A DNA stretch of 29,483 bases from Bryobacterales bacterium (GTDB lineage: Bacteria > Acidobacteriota > Terriglobia > Bryobacterales > Bryobacteraceae), in the NCBI GenBank assembly GCA_043743755.1, contig JAYTVY010000710.1:1-29483 (forward strand). Reading direction: 5' to 3'. Below are positions 822 to 7,264 of the stretch, piece by piece; within the stretch, counting starts at the first letter, position 1; each line of letters opens with the position of its first letter. The notes under the pieces are model-generated. The model saw nothing but the letters and a program-made list of their open reading frames with translations, ran no database searches and had not been told where the DNA came from. Made by a program: the position numbers and the translations under genes.

Positions 822-3011
822 CTATTTACGCCGGTCTATAAACTGCAACCCCACGCATAAAATTAAACCCGCCAGCGCCAGCGCCGCGCCCGTGAATACC
901 GATCCTGGTAGATACCGGAATGCCACACGGTGCTGACCGGAATCCACTACCACGCCTCGCACCAGATTGTACGCCTTGTAAATCCGGACTTCGCGGCCGT
1001 CCACATACGCGTGCCAGCCGGGGAACCAGGTGTCGCTGAGAATTAACATGCCGCGGCAGCGCATGGAGACGTCTAGCGTGATGCGGGCCGGCTCCCAGGC
1101 GCGTGTCTGAATTTGATCTCCTGCGTCGCAGGTTTCTAGCGCCGGTGCATCCCCAACCAGGAGCGCCGTGCGATCCCTGTGCAGTGCGGGACTCTCCAGC
1201 GCATACCCAAACTCTTTCTCCGGCAGCCCGAGCGCTTCGTGCACGGTACGCAGGCGCGGCAAAGCATCGGGATTGCGATATACATGCGCGCCGCTGGCGG
1301 CATCGAATACGGAAACCTGATTCGGCCGGGAAGGCGCATTTCCCACGTGGAATCCCGTGCCCAGCAAATCGCGGATTACGGGGCTCGCCTGCACCGTGGA
1401 CAAATAGCGCAGCATGCTGGGCCCCGGCCCGCCAAATTCATCGACACCCCACCAATCGCCGAAACCATACGGAATCACGGCCGGATCCACATCCACCCGA
1501 ATCGGCTGCGGCTGGGCCTTCAGAAACGCCGCCACATCCGCGTTTTCGGAGAGCCGGTGGACTTCCGACCCAGGCTGATCGCGCTGCCGCATCCCGTAGT
1601 TGCTGACATTGCTCAGCTCGAATAGCAGCGCCAGGATGGCGAGCGCGCCGCCCGCGCGAGCGGACAGGCGCGAGGGCGTCCAGAGCGCAAGCAATCCGCC
1701 AATCAGAACCGCCGCCAGCGCGGCCTCTGCCAGAAATTTGTACTCTTCGCTCTTTTCGGGCCGCACCGTGATCAAAACGGTAAGAGCGGCGTAGAGCAAG
1801 CCCCCCAGGGAAAGCAGCACGCGCATAGCTGCCTTTCTAGCGCCCTCCACGTCCACCGGCCGCCGCAGAAATGCTTCCAGCCCGAAGGCTGCCAGCATCG
1901 CCGCAGCCGCGTTCACAAGCGCCGCCGCCGCTACCGGCGATCGTGATTTATCGAAACTCGGAATCAGCGCATAGAGGACCCCATGAAACAATCCATAGGC
2001 GCCGAGCGCGAACAGCACCGCTCCCAGGGCGATCGCGAGAATCGTCCGCACGCCGCGGTCGCGCCAGCTGACAACGGCCCCCACCCAGGCCAGCGATAGC
2101 ATGGTGAAGCCCAGGAATATGGCCGCCCTTTTCTGGAATCCTGGCAGCAGCAGACCCAGCAGCGAAGTTGGATAGAGCGAATACTGCTCGTGGATGTTGT
2201 ACGTAACTTTATCGTTCCAACCCAGCGGTCCGGGTGCACCCACCCAGCGCACCGAAGCCTGTCCTAGTTCCGTGGCGGGTAGAATCTGGGCCGCTGCGAT
2301 GAACAGGAAGCACGCCCCGAACGCCGCGGCCGGCAACAAGGTCCGCCAGTGCCGGGGACGCTGAATAACCGCGTAATAATAGATCCATAGTGCGCCCATC
2401 GTCATCGTCATGATCCAGGGAATGTCGTGATGGCCGCTTAAATAGGAGACACCCAGCAGTGTGCCTGACACCGCGGCATTGGCCAGCTGACGCTCTCCAC
2501 GCAATACGCGAAAGAAGAAAAGCAGGATCAGCGGAATCCAGATCGCGCCCATCTCCCGCTGCAGGAATCCCACCGTCCCCAGGAATCCGCCCATACCGAA
2601 TGCGATCCCGCCTAGCAGCGACGCGGTTCGCGATAGCCGCAGATCGCGGCAAAACATGTAGGTGAACAACGCTGCCAGGTAGTGGATGAATACATAAAGT
2701 AGATGCAACGTCTCGATTCGGAAGCGGCCCTGGTTCAGCGGAACTGAGAACGCGATCCAGTTCAGGGGATTCAGCGTTCCCAGCTGAACCTGGCCCGGTA
2801 TCGGCTGGCCGGCCCATGTGTGCGGATCCCAGAGAGGAAAATGGAAGTGCTGCCACTGCTCGTTCTGGGCTTGAAACCAGGGCAGCAGCTCCCTTGCATT
2901 ATCGGGTCCCTCGAGCCACGTGTATTGCGATGTGAGGGTCAGCTTCCAGAAGAAGAGCACCGTCATCGCCAGCAGAAGCAGCGGCATTCGCGCGCGTTTG
3001 AGCCGGATCAT
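822..3011 (-). CDS. YfhO-family polytopic membrane protein (GT-C-like), paralogue 1, 729 aa
   Basis: Many TM segments, an early loop with PD..LLPW and FPLWDPHTWAGQP, a GFLG/SGH region, and C-terminal LILSDTWFPGWHAYVDG...NLVRGVVVDSGQHRVAFRY typical of YfhO proteins. ATGA overlap with the upstream paralogue. Confidence 0.8.
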   Translation of the reverse strand: MIRLKRARMPLLLLAMTVLFFWKLTLTSQYTWLEGPDNARELLPWFQAQNEQWQHFHFPLWDPHTWAGQPIPGQVQLGTLNPLNWIAFSVPLNQGRFRIETLHLLYVFIHYLAALFTYMFCRDLRLSRTASLLGGIAFGMGGFLGTVGFLQREMGAIWIPLILLFFFRVLRGERQLANAAVSGTLLGVSYLSGHHDIPWIMTMTMGALWIYYYAVIQRPRHWRTLLPAAAFGACFLFIAAAQILPATELGQASVRWVGAPGPLGWNDKVTYNIHEQYSLYPTSLLGLLLPGFQKRAAIFLGFTMLSLAWVGAVVSWRDRGVRTILAIALGAVLFALGAYGLFHGVLYALIPSFDKSRSPVAAAALVNAAAAMLAAFGLEAFLRRPVDVEGARKAAMRVLLSLGGLLYAALTVLITVRPEKSEEYKFLAEAALAAVLIGGLLALWTPSRLSARAGGALAILALLFELSNVSNYGMRQRDQPGSEVHRLSENADVAAFLKAQPQPIRVDVDPAVIPYGFGDWWGVDEFGGPGPSMLRYLSTVQASPVIRDLLGTGFHVGNAPSRPNQVSVFDAASGAHVYRNPDALPRLRTVHEALGLPEKEFGYALESPALHRDRTALLVGDAPALETCDAGDQIQTRAWEPARITLDVSMRCRGMLILSDTWFPGWHAYVDGREVRIYKAYNLVRGVVVDSGQHRVAFRYLPGSVFTGAALALAGLILCVGLQFIDRRK

Positions 3012-5227
3012 GCTGTCTTCCTTCGCCGATCACCGAGCTGCAGGACGCCGCACAATGCGATTCCGAGCAGCGCCAGAGCGGCCCCGGTAAATACCGATCC
3101 CGGGAGATAACGGAACCTCACGTGGTGACTCCCGCTATCCACCACAACACCTCGCACAAGATTGTAAGCCTTGTAAATGGGAACGCGGCGGCCGTCGACG
3201 TAGGCGCGCCAGCCCGGAAACCAGCTGTCACTGAGTATCAGCATTCCGCGGCAACGCATACTGACGTCGGCTTCGATTCGGGCGGGTTCGCGAACGCGGA
3301 TCTGGATCTCATCTCCTCCCTGGCAATTATCCAGCTTCGGAGCGTCCGCGGGAACAATCACGGTACGATCCGGGTGCAGGTCGGGACTGAGCAGCGCGTT
3401 GGTGAACGCTCTCTCGTTGCCGATACCGATGGCTTCGTGAACGGTGCGAACACGAGGGAGCGCATCGGGATTGCGAAAAACCTTCAGACCGCTTGCGCCT
3501 TCGAAAACCGGAGTCTGCTCGGGACGCGCGGGCGTCCGGCCCAGGTGGAAGTTCGCCGAGAGCAGCCTATGGACGCCGGGCTCGCTGTGGACCGAAGCAA
3601 GGAAGCGAAGCATGCCCGGCTGGTAGCCCTCCAGCTGATCGATGCCGAACCAGTCGCCGAAATTGTAGGGAAGCTCTTTGCGGTCCGCTTCCAGGCGGAC
3701 GGGGTCGGGCTGGGCTTTCAAGAATGCGGCGATATCGGAGTTCTCGGAGAGTTTGGATAGTGCGGAGCCGGGCGCGCCCCGAAAATGGAGCGGATAGTTG
3801 GTGACGAAGTTAAGCTCCAGTAACAAAATCAGCAGTATCAGAACCGAGCCCGCCGGCGCGGACAGGCGTGACGGCGTCCAGCTGCCGAACAGAGCCCCCA
3901 GCAGCATCGCGACAAACGCGGCTTCCGCCAGAAACTTGTATTCTTCGCCAGTCTCCGCTCGGACCGTGAGTAGAATGGCCACCGCGCCAAACAGGAATCC
4001 GCTCATAAGCAGTAGCGCGCGGCCCGCGAGTTTCCGGGACGCCTGCGCCTCGGCTGGAAATCGCCGCAGCGCGTCCACGCCAAACGCCGCCAGCACGGCG
4101 CAAGCTGCGTGCATCAGCGCCACTGCATCCTGGGGCGCCCGGGCTTTATCAAAACCGGGAATGGTGGCGTAGATCACGCCATGCAGCAGACCGTATGCGC
4201 CAAGCGCGAAGATCAAAGCGCCGGCGCCGAAGACCGCCAGAGTTCGCACGCCCGGCTCGCGCCGGCAAACCACTAATCCAATCAGCGCCAGGGTGAACGT
4301 GGTAAGCCCGATAAACGCGGGAGCATCGCGCTCGAAACCCGGCAGCACGATTCCGATAACCGCCGGCGGATAGACCGAATATTGCTCGTGAACCTGGTAG
4401 GGAACTACCTGATCCCACGCCGAAGGTTCCGAAGCGCCCGCCCAGCGTACCGACTCCTGTCCCAGTTCGGTCGCCGGCAAGACTTGCGCAGCGGCGATGA
4501 GCAGAAAACAAGCTGCGAATGCGGCAACCGGCAGCAAGGCTTGCCGGCGTCGGGGGCGAACCGTGGCACAGTAGTAAATCCATAACCCGGCCATCGCCGC
4601 GCTCATGAACAGAGGTACGTTATGGTGCGTGCCCAGAAATGAGATTCCGAGGAAAGCGCCAGAAGCCGCGGCGCTGGCTAGCGGCCGCTGCCCGCGTTGG
4701 GCGCGAAAAAAGAATAACAGAATCAACGGCAGCCACAGCGCGGACATCTCCCGCTGAAGGAGGCCCTCATTGCCGAGGAATCCTCCCAGTCCGAACGCGC
4801 ACCCGCCCAGCAGAGCGGCGCTGCGCCCGGCGCCCAAGTCGCGGCAAAGACCGTATGCGAACAGGACTGCCAGCCAATGGATGAATACGTAAAATTCATG
4901 GACCGTCCCGATGCGGATAGTCCCATGAGACAGAGGCATTGAAAACAGGATCCAGTTCAGAGGACCGAGCGCCCCCGGCTGTACCTGACCGGGAAACGGC
5001 AGACCGCCCCAGTGCAGGGGATCCCAGAGCGGAAAATGACCCTGATGCCACTGCGCGGCCTCGGCTTGCAGCCACGGCAGCGCCTGATTCACATTGTCGG
5101 GCGAATCCAGGAACGTGTACTGGTTGCTGAGAACCAGTTTCCAGAAGAAGAGCACGACAATCAGCAGCATCAACGCCGGCATGCCCCACTTTGCGCGTCG
5201 TGCGAATGCCGTGGCGGAAACGGTCAC
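3008..5227 (-). CDS. YfhO-family polytopic membrane protein (GT-C-like), paralogue 2, about 739 aa
   Basis: Colinear with paralogue 1 (FFWKLVLSNQYTFLDSPD...FPLWDPLHWGGLP...LILSDSWFPGWRAYVDG). Start is uncertain. GTG 5227 is preferred because it matches paralogue length and avoids overlap with ORF6N; ATG 5182 is an alternative. The ORF-track start 5431 overlaps the ORF6N gene. Confidence 0.78.
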   Translation of the reverse strand: MTVSATAFARRAKWGMPALMLLIVVLFFWKLVLSNQYTFLDSPDNVNQALPWLQAEAAQWHQGHFPLWDPLHWGGLPFPGQVQPGALGPLNWILFSMPLSHGTIRIGTVHEFYVFIHWLAVLFAYGLCRDLGAGRSAALLGGCAFGLGGFLGNEGLLQREMSALWLPLILLFFFRAQRGQRPLASAAASGAFLGISFLGTHHNVPLFMSAAMAGLWIYYCATVRPRRRQALLPVAAFAACFLLIAAAQVLPATELGQESVRWAGASEPSAWDQVVPYQVHEQYSVYPPAVIGIVLPGFERDAPAFIGLTTFTLALIGLVVCRREPGVRTLAVFGAGALIFALGAYGLLHGVIYATIPGFDKARAPQDAVALMHAACAVLAAFGVDALRRFPAEAQASRKLAGRALLLMSGFLFGAVAILLTVRAETGEEYKFLAEAAFVAMLLGALFGSWTPSRLSAPAGSVLILLILLLELNFVTNYPLHFRGAPGSALSKLSENSDIAAFLKAQPDPVRLEADRKELPYNFGDWFGIDQLEGYQPGMLRFLASVHSEPGVHRLLSANFHLGRTPARPEQTPVFEGASGLKVFRNPDALPRVRTVHEAIGIGNERAFTNALLSPDLHPDRTVIVPADAPKLDNCQGGDEIQIRVREPARIEADVSMRCRGMLILSDSWFPGWRAYVDGRRVPIYKAYNLVRGVVVDSGSHHVRFRYLPGSVFTGAALALLGIALCGVLQLGDRRRKTA

Positions 5228-5294
5228 TGAGGATAAAGCTATCGGAATAGCCTGTGTCGCTGCAACCTTGAACACTCTCCCAGACGGCAGCCCG

Positions 5295-5825
5295 CTAAAA
5301 CCCGATGCGTCGCTTCGGAACAACGTCGGGTGCCAGAATCTTCCGGATGGCATGAAATACGTTGGCGATCTGCTTATCGTGCAGCAAGAACTTGCCCTCC
5401 AGATCGTCCAGCTTCCGAGCGAGATCTTCATGAGTCGCGAGAAGGTAGCGAAGCTTCACGAAAGCCCGCATGATTGCGATGTTCACGTGGACCGCGCGCT
5501 CGCTGGTAAGCACACTCGACAGCATCGCCACACCCTGTTCAGTGAACGCATACGGCAGGTGCCCGCCGAAGCTGTGCCGGTTTGGTGTCACATTTTGTGA
5601 CACCAAAAGTTTGGCCTCACTGGCCTTCAATTGGAACGTGAAGTCCTTTGGAAAACGGCCCGGATTGCGCTTCACTTGTTGACGTAACGCCGTGGGCCGA
5701 ACGTCATACAATTTAGCGAGATCGCGATCCAGCATCACGCGCTGGCTCCTGATGGTGTAGATGTGCCGTTCGATCTGCGGAACGGGAATATTGGAATGCC
5801 GGACAATTTTGTTAGTGGGTTTCAT
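5295..5825 (-). CDS. ORF6N domain (KilA-N-like) DNA-binding protein, 176 aa
   Basis: IYTIRSQRVMLDRDLAKLYDV...LRQQVKRNPGRFPKDFTFQL...SQNVT...GGHLPYAFTEQGVAMLSSVLTSERAVHVNIAIMRAFVKLR, a coiled coil, and terminal KRRIGF: the characteristic ORF6N architecture. Confidence 0.92.
   Translation of the reverse strand: MKPTNKIVRHSNIPVPQIERHIYTIRSQRVMLDRDLAKLYDVRPTALRQQVKRNPGRFPKDFTFQLKASEAKLLVSQNVTPNRHSFGGHLPYAFTEQGVAMLSSVLTSERAVHVNIAIMRAFVKLRYLLATHEDLARKLDDLEGKFLLHDKQIANVFHAIRKILAPDVVPKRRIGF
5581..5607. repeat. Perfect inverted repeat (12-bp arms, 3-nt spacer) inside the ORF6N CDS
   Basis: TTTGGTGTCACA-TTT-TGTGACACCAAA; the arms 5581-5592 and 5596-5607 are exact reverse complements. Confidence 0.95.
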
Positions 5826-5893
5826 CGCTTAGGAAGTGCGCTGCCGCGGCAGTTGCTCTCGCATGGATTGGGCGGGGATGCGAGAATGGCCCA

Positions 5894-7264
5894 ATGGACC
5901 GCGAATTCGGGCTGACTCCCCAGTCGGTGCCGCCCGTCGAGACCCGCTTCAGGCGGATTGCCACCCCGCTTCCGGTGCCCGAATCCGTGCCGCTGCTTGA
6001 GCAACTGCGGCGCTTCGAGCCGGTGGCCATGCAAGGCCAGCCGCCGGTAGTCTGGCGCCGGGCCGAGGGATTCCAAGTTTGGGACGCATGGGGCAATTGT
6101 TGGATCGACTGGTCTTCCGGCGTATTGATCGCCAATGCGGGACATGGCCGCCGTGAGGTAATGGACGCCATCGCCAGCCAGGCGGCATCCGGTCTTCTTA
6201 CCAGTTACTGCTTTCCGAATGCGGCGCGCGCAGCCCTGGTGGAACGGTTGTGCGCGCTGCTGCCGCCGCCGCTCGATAAGGTGTTTCTGCTCACCACTGG
6301 ATCCGAGGCTGTGGAGTGCGCCATCAAGCTCTGCCGCATGCATGGCGTGCGCGCCGGCGGCCGAGGCAAGCACGTGATCGTCTCCTTCACAGACGCCTTC
6401 CACGGACGCACGCTGGGTGCGCAGCAGGCCGGCGGAATCCCGGCGCTTAAGGAATGGATCGTCAATCTCGATGACGGGTTCGTTCAGCTTCCGTTCCCAG
6501 ACGGATTCCGAACGCGTGACACATCCTTCGAGATGTTTCAGCGCCGCCTCGCTGAGACGGGCATTGAACCCCACCGCGTAGCGGGCGTGATCCTCGAGAC
6601 CTATCAGGGCGGCAGCGCCGCATTTGCGCCCACCGAATACATGCAGGCACTGCGCGAATGGTGTACAGGCCATCGCGCGCTGCTGGTTTGTGATGAAGTG
6701 CAGGCAGGCTTCGGACGCACCGGCAGGCTCTGGGGATTCGAGCATTATGGCATCGTCCCGGATCTCGCCACCTTCGGCAAGGGCATCACCAGTTCACTTC
6801 CACTGGCCGTGGTCGCCGGTCCCGCCGCCATTCTGGATTTGCCCGGACCCGGATCGATGACGTCGACGCATAGCGGCAATCCAGTCTGCTGCGCGGCCGC
6901 GCTCGCGTCCATTGACCTGATCGTCCAAGAGCGCTTGGCTGAGCGCGCTTGTCGCACCGGCGCCGTTCTGCATAAGCGGCTGCGCGAGATCCAGCAGCGC
7001 TTTCCGCGAATCGGGTTTGTAGCGGGCCAAGGGCTGGTGGCCGGACTGTCCTGCGCGGAGCCAGGTACGTTGCGCCCCGATGGCGACCTCGCCTGGGACG
7101 TCGTCCGGCGTTGTTACGAAAAAGGCGTGCTCATGTTTGCGCCGGTCGGTTTGGGAGGCGCAACTGTGAAAATCTCTCCGCCGCTGACCATTCCCGAAGA
7201 CGCGATCCTCGAAAGCGCCGCTGTTCTCGAAGCGGCGTTCGAAGAAGCAGGAGCGGGTGCATGA
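5894..7264 (+). CDS. Class III PLP-dependent aminotransferase (GabT/ArgD-like family), 456 aa
   Basis: TTGSEAVE, AFHGRT, DEVQAGFGRTG, FGKG (PLP lysine) and STHSGNP motifs. Confidence 0.92.
   Translation: MDREFGLTPQSVPPVETRFRRIATPLPVPESVPLLEQLRRFEPVAMQGQPPVVWRRAEGFQVWDAWGNCWIDWSSGVLIANAGHGRREVMDAIASQAASGLLTSYCFPNAARAALVERLCALLPPPLDKVFLLTTGSEAVECAIKLCRMHGVRAGGRGKHVIVSFTDAFHGRTLGAQQAGGIPALKEWIVNLDDGFVQLPFPDGFRTRDTSFEMFQRRLAETGIEPHRVAGVILETYQGGSAAFAPTEYMQALREWCTGHRALLVCDEVQAGFGRTGRLWGFEHYGIVPDLATFGKGITSSLPLAVVAGPAAILDLPGPGSMTSTHSGNPVCCAAALASIDLIVQERLAERACRTGAVLHKRLREIQQRFPRIGFVAGQGLVAGLSCAEPGTLRPDGDLAWDVVRRCYEKGVLMFAPVGLGGATVKISPPLTIPEDAILESAAVLEAAFEEAGAGA

What the first reader, a model, noticed from the sequence alone, without database searches (positions are those of the whole stretch)
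5581..5607. Perfect palindrome embedded in the ORF6N gene, encoding the SQxVT segment of the DNA-binding domain
Seen: TTTGGTGTCACA-TTT-TGTGACACCAAA is an exact 12-bp-arm inverted repeat inside a CDS. It encodes L74-V-S-Q-N-V-T-P81, between the conserved FxFQL motif and the GG..PYAFTEQG motif. It is the longest perfect stem I noticed in any CDS of this window, and it has the dyad geometry of an operator (TGTCACA-N3-TGTGACA). Recollection, unverified: ORF6N homologues vary at this spot (e.g. LRSQFVTS, LKSQIATS, LMSQFATS), and such peptides are compatible with self-complementary codons. That would mean the hairpin rather than the peptide is under selection. Inference, four options. (a) A self-referential regulator, where the protein binds a palindrome that also encodes part of its own DNA-contacting surface, so site and specificity co-evolve. 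(b) A diversification hotspot, where template switching between arms reshuffles these residues while keeping the dyad. (c) A recombination or mobilisation site for this orphan gene. (d) A functional mRNA hairpin. I know of no description of such a system.
Basis: partly seen in the sequence, partly recalled or inferred. Interest (0 to 1): 0.82.

Follow-up and report, generated by a model that had tools for sequence, protein, structure and literature searches.

The report
Operator-like palindrome inside ORF6N gene
A perfect 27-bp DNA palindrome inside a small DNA-binding (ORF6N, candidate phage-defence) gene is kept as DNA rather than as protein in nearly all relatives, and its bases change together with one residue of the protein's DNA-reading helix, so it is most likely the protein's own binding site hidden in its own gene.

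Summary
TTTGGTGTCACA-TTT-TGTGACACCAAA (5581-5607) lies in a 176-aa ORF6N gene (5295-5825, minus strand) and encodes L74-P81.

It is neither chance nor peptide constraint:
- In 142 dereplicated homologues the same 27 nt average 9.5 of 12 pairs, against 3.1 elsewhere in the gene and 5.0 after synonymous resampling.
- 10 of 12 pairs show compensatory changes.
- A subgroup keeps the palindrome in another reading frame.
- The closest relative (85% nt identity) has no change in it.

Evidence on mechanism:
- G.T and A.C mismatches are balanced, so there is no RNA wobble signature.
- The 3-nt centre is almost always AAA, AAT, ATT or TTT (no TpA step).
- Residue 49, in the predicted recognition helix 25 codons upstream, predicts arm bases 9-10 along the classical code: Q-TCACA, E-TCGCA, K-TTCCA, R-TGCCA, L-TTTCA. 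This held in 29 further genomes (27 of 28) and in the shifted-frame genes.
- The window's genome has one more, identical copy, intergenic, before a Ser/Thr kinase gene.

Best reading (about 0.55): a double-stranded operator bound by the gene's own product, probably for promoter-independent autoregulation. No binding was shown.

This scan has noted the phenomenon on many other genomes. I found no paper describing it.

The parts
5581..5607 (.). Perfect palindrome TTTGGTGTCACA-TTT-TGTGACACCAAA. It is the proposed operator, of the Q-type core class TCACA-WWW-TGTGA.
   Evidence: homologous position conserved as a dyad in homologues
5295..5825 (-). 176-aa ORF6N gene: N-terminal helix-turn-helix-like domain and C-terminal long helices. 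It matches the PADLOC candidate defence family PDC-S05.
5664..5696 (-). Codons 44-54 (PTALRQQVKRN), the predicted recognition helix.
   Evidence: AlphaFold2 model H44-53; column entropies and covariation
5679..5681 (-). Codon 49 (CAA, Gln), the residue that predicts arm bases 9-10 across the family. Q goes with TCACA, as found here.
5826..5893 (.). Gap between the ORF6N start and the divergent aminotransferase gene. It holds no copy of the palindrome and no sigma-70 consensus.

Best explanation
The palindrome is a double-stranded DNA binding site (operator) for the ORF6N protein that the same gene encodes. Two subunits each place the recognition helix (residues 44-53) in the major groove of one arm. 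Residue 49 reads arm bases 9-10: here Gln reads the A of TCACA. The A/T tract at the centre supplies a narrow minor groove. The site sits about 220 nt into the coding sequence, so it travels with the gene on horizontal transfer. The likely use (inferred, about 0.35) is negative autoregulation that needs no particular promoter, either by blocking elongating RNA polymerase or by looping to a second site where one exists. The identical intergenic copy on contig C33 would put the Ser/Thr kinase gene behind it under the same protein. What is shown: the dyad is selected at the DNA level, and it co-varies with residue 49. What is inferred: binding itself, the oligomeric state and the regulatory outcome.
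For: (1) The dyad is conserved beyond coding needs. Mean pairing is 9.5 of 12 at this offset, against 3.07 +/- 0.81 at all other offsets. Under synonymous resampling P(>=11) is 6e-4, yet 55% of genes reach it. In the formal count 91.8% of cells are paired, against 72.5% in shuffles (0 of 500) and 27-43% when slid, and 10 of 12 pairs change on both sides.
(2) A subgroup keeps the same DNA core in a reading frame shifted by 2 nt, where it encodes VVTNCDHL.
(3) The closest relative differs at 78 of 531 nt but at none in a 34-nt block around the site.
(4) Residue 49 predicts bases 9-10: Q-CA 44 of 45, E-CG 10, K-TC 7, R-GC/AC 10, L-TT 2. This matches the classical Gln-A, Glu-C, Lys/Arg-G and hydrophobic-T contacts (general knowledge).
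(5) The rule replicated in 29 further genomes, 27 of 28. It also holds in the shifted-frame genes, 6 of 6, where the bases encode other residues.
(6) On a tree of the rest of the protein the two traits change together: 24, 26 and a joint 26 changes.
(7) G.T and A.C mismatches are 13 against 17. The centre is AnTm in 70 of 71 in-gene and 16 of 17 flanking copies.
(8) Extra copies exist. There is an identical 23-bp copy on C33; by my arithmetic the chance is about 2e-6. There are cognate upstream or solo copies in G233, G247, G135 and G292. Class palindromes reach 0.27 per kb within 300 nt of genes.
Against: No binding experiment or protein-DNA model was available. Only about 8% of genes have an upstream copy and about 8% a downstream copy, so a promoter operator is not the rule. 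Flanking copies are often not cognate (p=0.08; L043, L199, G292). The tree is poorly resolved, and only 3+3 well-supported independent contrasts back the residue-49 rule. Inheritance of codons 44-82 as one block could mimic part of it. Outer arm positions 4-7 also stay paired, and no reader residue could be assigned to them. The fold has no solved homologue; the best match is a weak MarR-like hit at E about 0.1. No promoter consensus lies near either site in this genome.
Confidence: 0.55

Rival explanations
1. A structure-specific element. The palindrome acts as an intrastrand hairpin or extruded cruciform, in single-stranded DNA or RNA. It is recognised by its shape and its loop-proximal bases, either by the ORF6N protein or by host machinery, for example in replication, transfer or mRNA control.
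For: Conservation is highest next to the centre (pairs 11, 12 and 8), while the rest of the stem varies but stays paired. Several different but individually perfect palindromes can sit beside one gene (L199, L043). The strand folds at -12.6 kcal/mol as DNA, z = -3.9. A hairpin stem is also a duplex, so the residue-49 rule does not exclude it.
Against: There is no excess of G.T over A.C mismatches (13 against 17; inner pairs 7 against 13), which argues against a sense-strand RNA hairpin. Loops would have no obvious reason to avoid TpA steps. There is no Rfam match and no terminator T-run. The same rule in two arms fits a symmetric dimer on duplex DNA.
Confidence: 0.2
2. A recombination or mobilisation site. 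The palindrome is where ORF6N genes are cut, joined or exchanged, which would explain their spread as orphan genes.
For: 8 of 23 truncated copies end at HMM positions 66-78, just at the site. Several split genes in relatives break there. L028 and L038 are about 95% identical up to the 3' edge of the palindrome and about 68% identical after it. Palindromes sit right at gene ends (+18 to +52) and starts. The family is 60-67% identical across phyla.
Against: No recombinase is linked to the gene in this window. N-half against C-half identity differences are mostly within noise. Palindromes are indel-prone in any case, so breakpoints there need no function. The residue-49 covariation is not predicted by this model alone.
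Confidence: 0.1
3. A mutational by-product. Template switching between the arms during replication keeps a quasi-palindrome perfect without any selected function.
For: The mechanism is known to perfect quasi-palindromes (general knowledge). Many copies are 12 of 12.
Against: It does not explain retention at one codon position across phyla and in two frames. It does not explain the conserved CA-WWW-TG core and TpA avoidance. It does not explain the link to residue 49, 80 nt away.
Confidence: 0.04
4. Chance, or a side effect of the conserved peptide and codon usage.
For: The peptide LVSQNV(I/T)P is itself conserved in the closest subfamily. Three of the 12 pairs follow automatically from first codon positions.
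Against: The synonymous null gives a mean of 4.96 pairs, and none of the resamples reached 12. Rare A/T-ending codons are used in a genome of 61.6% G+C. A second identical copy is non-coding.
Confidence: 0.01

Closest known systems
Operators inside coding sequences (lacO2 in lacZ, galOI in galE, the PurR box in purB acting as a roadblock); general knowledge
   Same: A dyad-symmetric repressor site placed downstream of the start codon, which must coexist with a reading frame. It acts by looping or by blocking elongation.
   Different: Those sites lie in target genes, are single cases, and are not conserved across a protein family. Here the site lies in the regulator's own gene, at one fixed codon position, in nearly every member across phyla. 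It shapes a conserved protein motif.
parS inside parB/spo0J, and ori-lambda iterons inside gene O (cis sites within the gene of the protein that binds them); general knowledge
   Same: The binding site travels inside the gene of its binding protein, so the pair cannot be separated by recombination.
   Different: Those proteins are partition or replication-initiation factors, with spreading or several tandem iterons. Here there is a single palindrome in a small HTH-like protein with no replication or partition genes nearby.
Repressor-operator specificity families of temperate phages and controller (C) proteins of restriction-modification systems
   Same: The recognition-helix residue and the operator bases diversify together into orthogonal pairs.
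   Different: Their operators are intergenic. Here each change of specificity also forces amino-acid replacements (positions 76 and 79), because the operator is translated.
REP elements with RAYT, and IS200/IS605 end hairpins
   Same: Short palindromes of one class found inside, beside and away from a cognate gene, sometimes in arrays (L043).
   Different: No HUH nuclease is involved. There are only two copies in this genome. The evidence points to duplex readout rather than single-strand hairpin recognition.

Membership tests
ORF6N domain proteins (Pfam PF10543) | Profile score above the curated gathering cut-off | tested here: met
   107.8 bits against 27.8; residues 21-105 cover profile positions 2-86 of 86
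PADLOC candidate defence family PDC-S05 | Match to the family's profile | tested here: met
   E=3.9e-52 over residues 13-164
PADLOC candidate defence family PDC-S05 | Protection against phage | not testable with these tools
   One representative, annotated with a RhuM domain, lowered plating of T7/T5 about 1000-fold and T4 about 10-fold in E. coli B (preprint 10.1101/2024.09.26.614923). It is not shown to be an orthologue of this protein.
Protein-bound operator within a coding sequence (self-site) | Dyad symmetry kept at the DNA level beyond what the encoded peptide needs | tested here: met
Protein-bound operator within a coding sequence (self-site) | Site bases co-vary with a DNA-reading residue of the cognate protein | tested here: met
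   Residue 49 against bases 9-10: 73 of 74 and 27 of 28 in a fresh sample. The rule holds in the shifted frame. Few well-supported independent contrasts exist.
Protein-bound operator within a coding sequence (self-site) | Physical binding of the protein to the site, and an effect on transcription | not testable with these tools
   No protein-DNA modelling or expression data were available.
Functional mRNA hairpin / known RNA family | G.U wobble pairs tolerated on the transcribed strand; match to a curated RNA family | tested here: not met
   G.T 13 against A.C 17; no Rfam match at the site
Intrinsic transcription terminator | G+C-rich stem followed by a T-run | tested here: not met
   No terminator-like site in 5100-6000 or at the C33 copy
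Dispersed hairpin repeats (REP/RAYT-like) | Many copies per genome | tested here: not met
   Exactly two palindromes of the class in 3.77 Mb (genome 70% complete), with none intermediate up to 4 mismatches
Iterons of an initiator inside its own gene (lambda O type) | Several tandem repeats of the site within the gene | tested here: not met
   A single site in this gene

The most novel reading that the evidence does not exclude
Across the ORF6N family, and at least part of Bro-N, each gene carries its own operator written into its coding sequence. The 'conserved protein motif' (L/W)-x-S-Q-x-V-T-x is then largely a translated binding site. Switches of DNA specificity at residue 49 drag amino-acid replacements at positions 76 and 79 with them. 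The family would be a natural library of orthogonal, self-contained regulator-operator cassettes that keep their feedback wherever they land. Such a cassette is possibly the control core of a phage-defence gene.
Probability: 0.45. Interest if true: 0.85.

Novelty: new variant of a known kind. Interest (0 to 1): 0.74.

Why it matters
If the reading is right, it matters in several ways.
- A very large and almost unstudied gene family (more than 8000 hits at 60-67% identity across phyla) gains a concrete, testable mechanism.
- It would be a clear natural case of a nucleic-acid signal dictating a conserved protein motif. That is a warning for motif-based annotation and for dN/dS analyses.
- The simple residue-to-base rule (Q/E/K/R/L at position 49) offers ready-made orthogonal repressor-operator pairs for synthetic biology.
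- It gives a handle on how a candidate anti-phage gene (PDC-S05) is controlled.
- For this genome, it predicts that a Ser/Thr kinase next to an ECF sigma/anti-sigma pair is under ORF6N control.

Tried and rejected
- **Self-association job** (two copies of the protein with alignment A1): no verdict. It counts neither way.
- **Structure search:** Foldseek against the PDB gave only weak MarR-like rows (E about 0.1, TM about 0.22). A profile search of PDB sequences gave only coiled-coil noise.
- **C33 solo site in relatives:** only the kinase domain matched in relatives, and none had a palindrome there. Conservation of that site is therefore unknown.
- **Are flanking palindromes cognate to the in-gene copy?** Mean 7.1 of 10 against a null of 6.7, p=0.08. 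Not significant. Some apparent matches were second genes in the same locus.
- **N-half against C-half identity:** correlation 0.32, but the spread is close to sampling noise. Only L028/L038 is a clear mosaic.
- **Single versus double changes among close pairs:** only 5 close pairs, none informative.
- **Promoter and terminator consensus scans:** nothing at either site.
- **Whole-genome 2x2 test of cognate against non-cognate extra sites:** 4 cognate against 1 non-cognate. This is too few for a test.
- **The 35 exact copies of the window's variant in 185,579 species' genomes:** 22 lie in loci without an ORF6N hit. Many of those have G/C-containing centres, several of them in Streptomyces.

Full report
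**1. The observation**

The + strand at 5581-5607 reads TTTGGTGTCACA-TTT-TGTGACACCAAA, with 12-bp arms, a 3-nt centre and perfect complementarity. It is the only perfect inverted repeat of 12 nt or more with a short spacer in the 29.5-kb window. The 14-base core is expected 0.03 times in shuffles.

It lies in a 176-aa minus-strand ORF (5295..5825) that matches Pfam ORF6N at 107.8 bits. The palindrome runs from the third base of codon 73 to the second base of codon 82 and encodes L74-V-S-Q-N-V-T-P81. All paired positions are either first with first codon positions, or second with third. Third positions must therefore follow the second position of the partner codon. The arms use rare A/T-ending codons in a genome of 61.6% G+C.

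**2. It is a family-wide DNA feature, not chance and not peptide constraint**

The protein belongs to a very large family, with 8000 scored hits. The best are 60-67% identical and are named from Omnitrophota, Gemmataceae, Patescibacteria, Terriglobia and Margulisiibacteriota. The local consensus in the closest subfamily is LVSQNVIP.

I fetched DNA for homologues from metagenomes, relatives' genomes and viral contigs.

- At the homologous 27 nt, most genes have 10-12 of 12 pairs but with different arms and different peptides. Examples are GAGGTCGCA/TGCGACCTC (LRSQFATS), GAGGTTCCA/TGGAACCTC (LRFQFGTS) and AAGGCGCCA/TGGCGCCTT (SRRQFGAL).
- In 142 dereplicated genes the mean is 9.5 pairs at this offset. 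All other offsets average 3.07 +/- 0.81, and the next best reaches 5.75.
- Resampling synonymous codons gives a mean of 4.96 and P(>=11) = 6e-4, while 55% of genes reach 11 or more.
- On 79 distinct segments the pair-counting tool gives 91.8% paired cells. Shuffles give 72.5 +/- 0.8 (0 of 500 as high), and slid partners give 27-43%. Ten of 12 pairs change on both sides, and the covariation score is 0.517 against 0.184.
- The low scorers nearly all carry the palindrome in another register. In particular, one subgroup has the same core shifted by 2 nt, for example GAGGTGGTCACA-AAC-TGTGACCACCTC, which encodes VVTNCDHL.
- The closest relative (94% protein and 85% nucleotide identity, from a soil metagenome) differs at 78 of 531 nt, 62 of them third positions. 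It has no change in a 34-nt block around the palindrome; for the nine third positions alone P is about 0.02.

One unpublished genome (G001) contributed one gene copy (L100) to the pooled counts.

**3. Anatomy of the site**

- Pairs 11 (C:G), 12 (A:T), 8 (T:A) and 4 (mostly G:C) are nearly constant. Pairs 5, 6, 7, 9 and 10 vary but stay paired.
- The centre is AAA, AAT, ATT or TTT in 70 of 71 A/T-only in-gene centres and 16 of 17 flanking ones. It is an A-tract followed by a T-tract and almost never contains a TpA step.
- AAT/ATT and AAA/TTT are the same centre read in the two orientations. They correspond to the peptide alternatives Q-I/Q-F and Q-N/H-F.
- G.T and A.C mismatches are balanced, 13 against 17 overall and 7 against 13 in the inner pairs. 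There is therefore no wobble signature of a sense-strand RNA hairpin.
- No Rfam family matches, and no T-run follows the stem.

**4. Link to the protein**

The AlphaFold2 model (pLDDT 74) shows strands, then helices 33-39 and 44-53 (helix-turn-helix-like), and long C-terminal helices. Residues 73-82 are the least confident part of the domain. No solved homologue was found.

- A mutual-information scan of all protein columns not encoded by the palindrome picked column 49, in helix 44-53, as by far the best predictor of arm bases 9 and 10. Normalised MI was 0.92-0.94.
- The table reads Q with TCACA (44 of 45), E with TCGCA (10), K with TTCCA (7), R with TGCCA, AGCCA, CGCCA or TACCA (10), and L with TTTCA (2). 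These are the textbook side-chain to base preferences: Gln-A, Glu-C, Lys/Arg-G, hydrophobic-T (general knowledge).
- Residue 46 follows as well: R with E49, N with K49.
- On a tree built without columns 44-54 and 72-90, the classes are scattered and the two traits change together (24, 26 and a joint 26 changes). That tree is poorly resolved, and only 3+3 well-supported contrasts exist, all concordant.

Two further tests broke the obvious confounds.

- In the shifted-frame genes, the same bases encode Thr/Ala and a silent Cys position instead of Ser/Val/Ala. The rule still holds: Q-TCACA 4 of 4 and E-TCGCA 2 of 2, plus one more E-type gene in the new sample.
- I drew a fresh sample of 29 genomes of the phylum with the Pfam model. 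The palindrome was present in 28 and the rule held in 27 of 28. The exception (L257, R49) carries one Q-type and one R-type half-site, which looks like a transition state.

The window's gene obeys the rule: Q49 with TCACA.

**5. Copies outside the gene**

- The window's genome (3.77 Mb, 70% complete) has exactly one further palindrome of the class, and nothing intermediate up to 4 mismatches. It is TGGTGTCACAA-T-TTGTGACCA-type with full identity of the 20 specified bases, at C33:6377-6399. By my arithmetic from base composition the chance is about 2e-6.
- That copy is intergenic. It lies 1 nt after the stop of a zf-HC2 anti-sigma-like gene and about 24 nt before the start of a Ser/Thr kinase gene, with an ECF-type sigma gene further upstream. 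Its flanks are unrelated to the ORF6N gene. Relatives did not keep the region.
- Across one genome for each of 185,579 species, the exact 18-base variant occurs in 35 stretches. Four are in-gene at the homologous spot. Nine lie within about 5-250 nt of the start or stop of an ORF6N gene or fragment.
- Around 127 dereplicated genes, 101 have a stringent in-gene site. Ten have one within 300 nt upstream and ten downstream, mostly at +18 to +52. The density is 0.27-0.28 per kb near the genes against 0.06-0.09 per kb further away.
- Flanking sites are sometimes cognate (L010, L093, L094) and often not. L043 has three different perfect palindromes about 32 nt apart.
- In single-ORF6N genomes, Q-type genomes held only Q-type sites (one extra upstream copy, in G233). 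E-type genomes held extra E-type sites in G247 (upstream), G135 (solo, with arms as in its gene) and G292 (solo), and one non-cognate Q-type site in G292.

**6. Interpretation**

Five observations fit a duplex operator read by a symmetric oligomer of the gene's own product:
- Watson-Crick-only symmetry.
- An A-tract centre.
- A recognition-helix residue that follows the bases in a chemically sensible way.
- Persistence of that rule across reading frames.
- Cognate extra copies.

About 85% of genes have no other copy nearby, so the in-gene site is the core of the system. A site at about +220 that travels with a frequently transferred orphan gene would give feedback that does not depend on the local promoter. 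It would work as a roadblock, or by looping where a second site exists. This last step is inference.

The hairpin/cruciform alternative remains possible, because a stem is also a duplex. It would better explain why several non-identical perfect palindromes can flank one gene.

A role in recombination is suggested only by three observations. Truncated copies end at the site (8 of 23), split genes break there, and there is one clear mosaic junction (L028/L038).

**7. Context and knowns**

The neighbours here are a YfhO-like membrane protein gene, a class-III aminotransferase gene and a GFO/IDH/MocA oxidoreductase gene. This is not a defence island.

The protein matches the PADLOC candidate family PDC-S05. 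One representative of that family, carrying a RhuM domain, was reported to protect E. coli against T7, T5 and T4.

Twelve papers mention ORF6N, all in passing as far as listed, and none appears to concern a palindrome. Searches for PDC-S05 and for self-encoded operators found no description either.

The scan's own notes record the same phenomenon on many other genomes. I re-derived the main claims independently here. Bro-N genes of the same phylum also show an ACA-WWW-TGT palindrome at nt 137-149 of the domain in 8 of 14 cases.

**8. Verdict**

The best mechanism is a self-encoded operator (0.55). In kind it is a new variant of intragenic and self-linked cis sites. It is striking because it is family-wide and because it shapes a conserved protein motif.

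Noticed in passing
own genome, G000:C33:6377-6399 (L001 1498-1520): A second, identical copy of the palindrome (TGGTGTCACAA-T-TTGTGACACCA) lies between the stop of a zf-HC2 anti-sigma-like gene and the start of a Ser/Thr kinase gene, downstream of an ECF-type sigma gene. It predicts ORF6N control of that kinase.
   Followed up: partly
L043 (metagenome contig Ga0299912... region downstream of the ORF6N gene, +18, +52, +82): An array of three different, individually near-perfect palindromes of the same class, spaced about 32 nt apart. None is cognate to the in-gene (R-type) site.
   Followed up: partly
L028 vs L038, gene codons 10-176: A mosaic pair: about 95% nt identity up to about 10 nt past the palindrome, about 68% for the next ~130 nt, then about 90% again. 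One recombination junction sits at the edge of the palindrome.
   Followed up: partly
L257 (G105:C15), homologous site: A hybrid site, TGAGGTCACA-ACT-TGGCACCTCA, in a gene with R49: one Q-type half and one R-type half. It is a possible intermediate of a specificity switch.
   Followed up: no
L240-L253 (Bro-N genes of the same phylum): 8 of 14 Bro-N domains carry a palindrome with an ACA-WWW-TGT core at nt 137-149 of the domain (for example GGGGGACA-ATT-TGTCCCCC), so the feature is not limited to ORF6N.
   Followed up: partly
L195, L198, L214, L218 (Streptomyces records): The variant GGTGTCACA-TGA/TCA-TGTGACACC recurs in four Streptomyces species with no ORF6N gene in the locus. It may be the operator of an unrelated regulator.
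   Followed up: no
window 3008-5431 (-) vs 5295-5825 (-): The longest reading of the YfhO-like membrane protein ORF overlaps the 3' end of the ORF6N gene by 137 nt. Its true start is probably further downstream (GTG at about 5189-5191), which would leave about 100 nt between the genes.
   Followed up: no
own genome G000:C382:17151-17267: A weak N-terminal ORF6N fragment (residues 10-48; 25.8 bits) without the palindrome region. It is probably a decayed copy.
   Followed up: no
relatives' genomes, (e.g. G033:C2:209015-209505, G038:C86:16410-16902): Several ORF6N copies are split into two overlapping frames exactly at the palindrome-encoded residues (about 79-91). This points to frameshifts or small duplications at the site.
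   Followed up: partly
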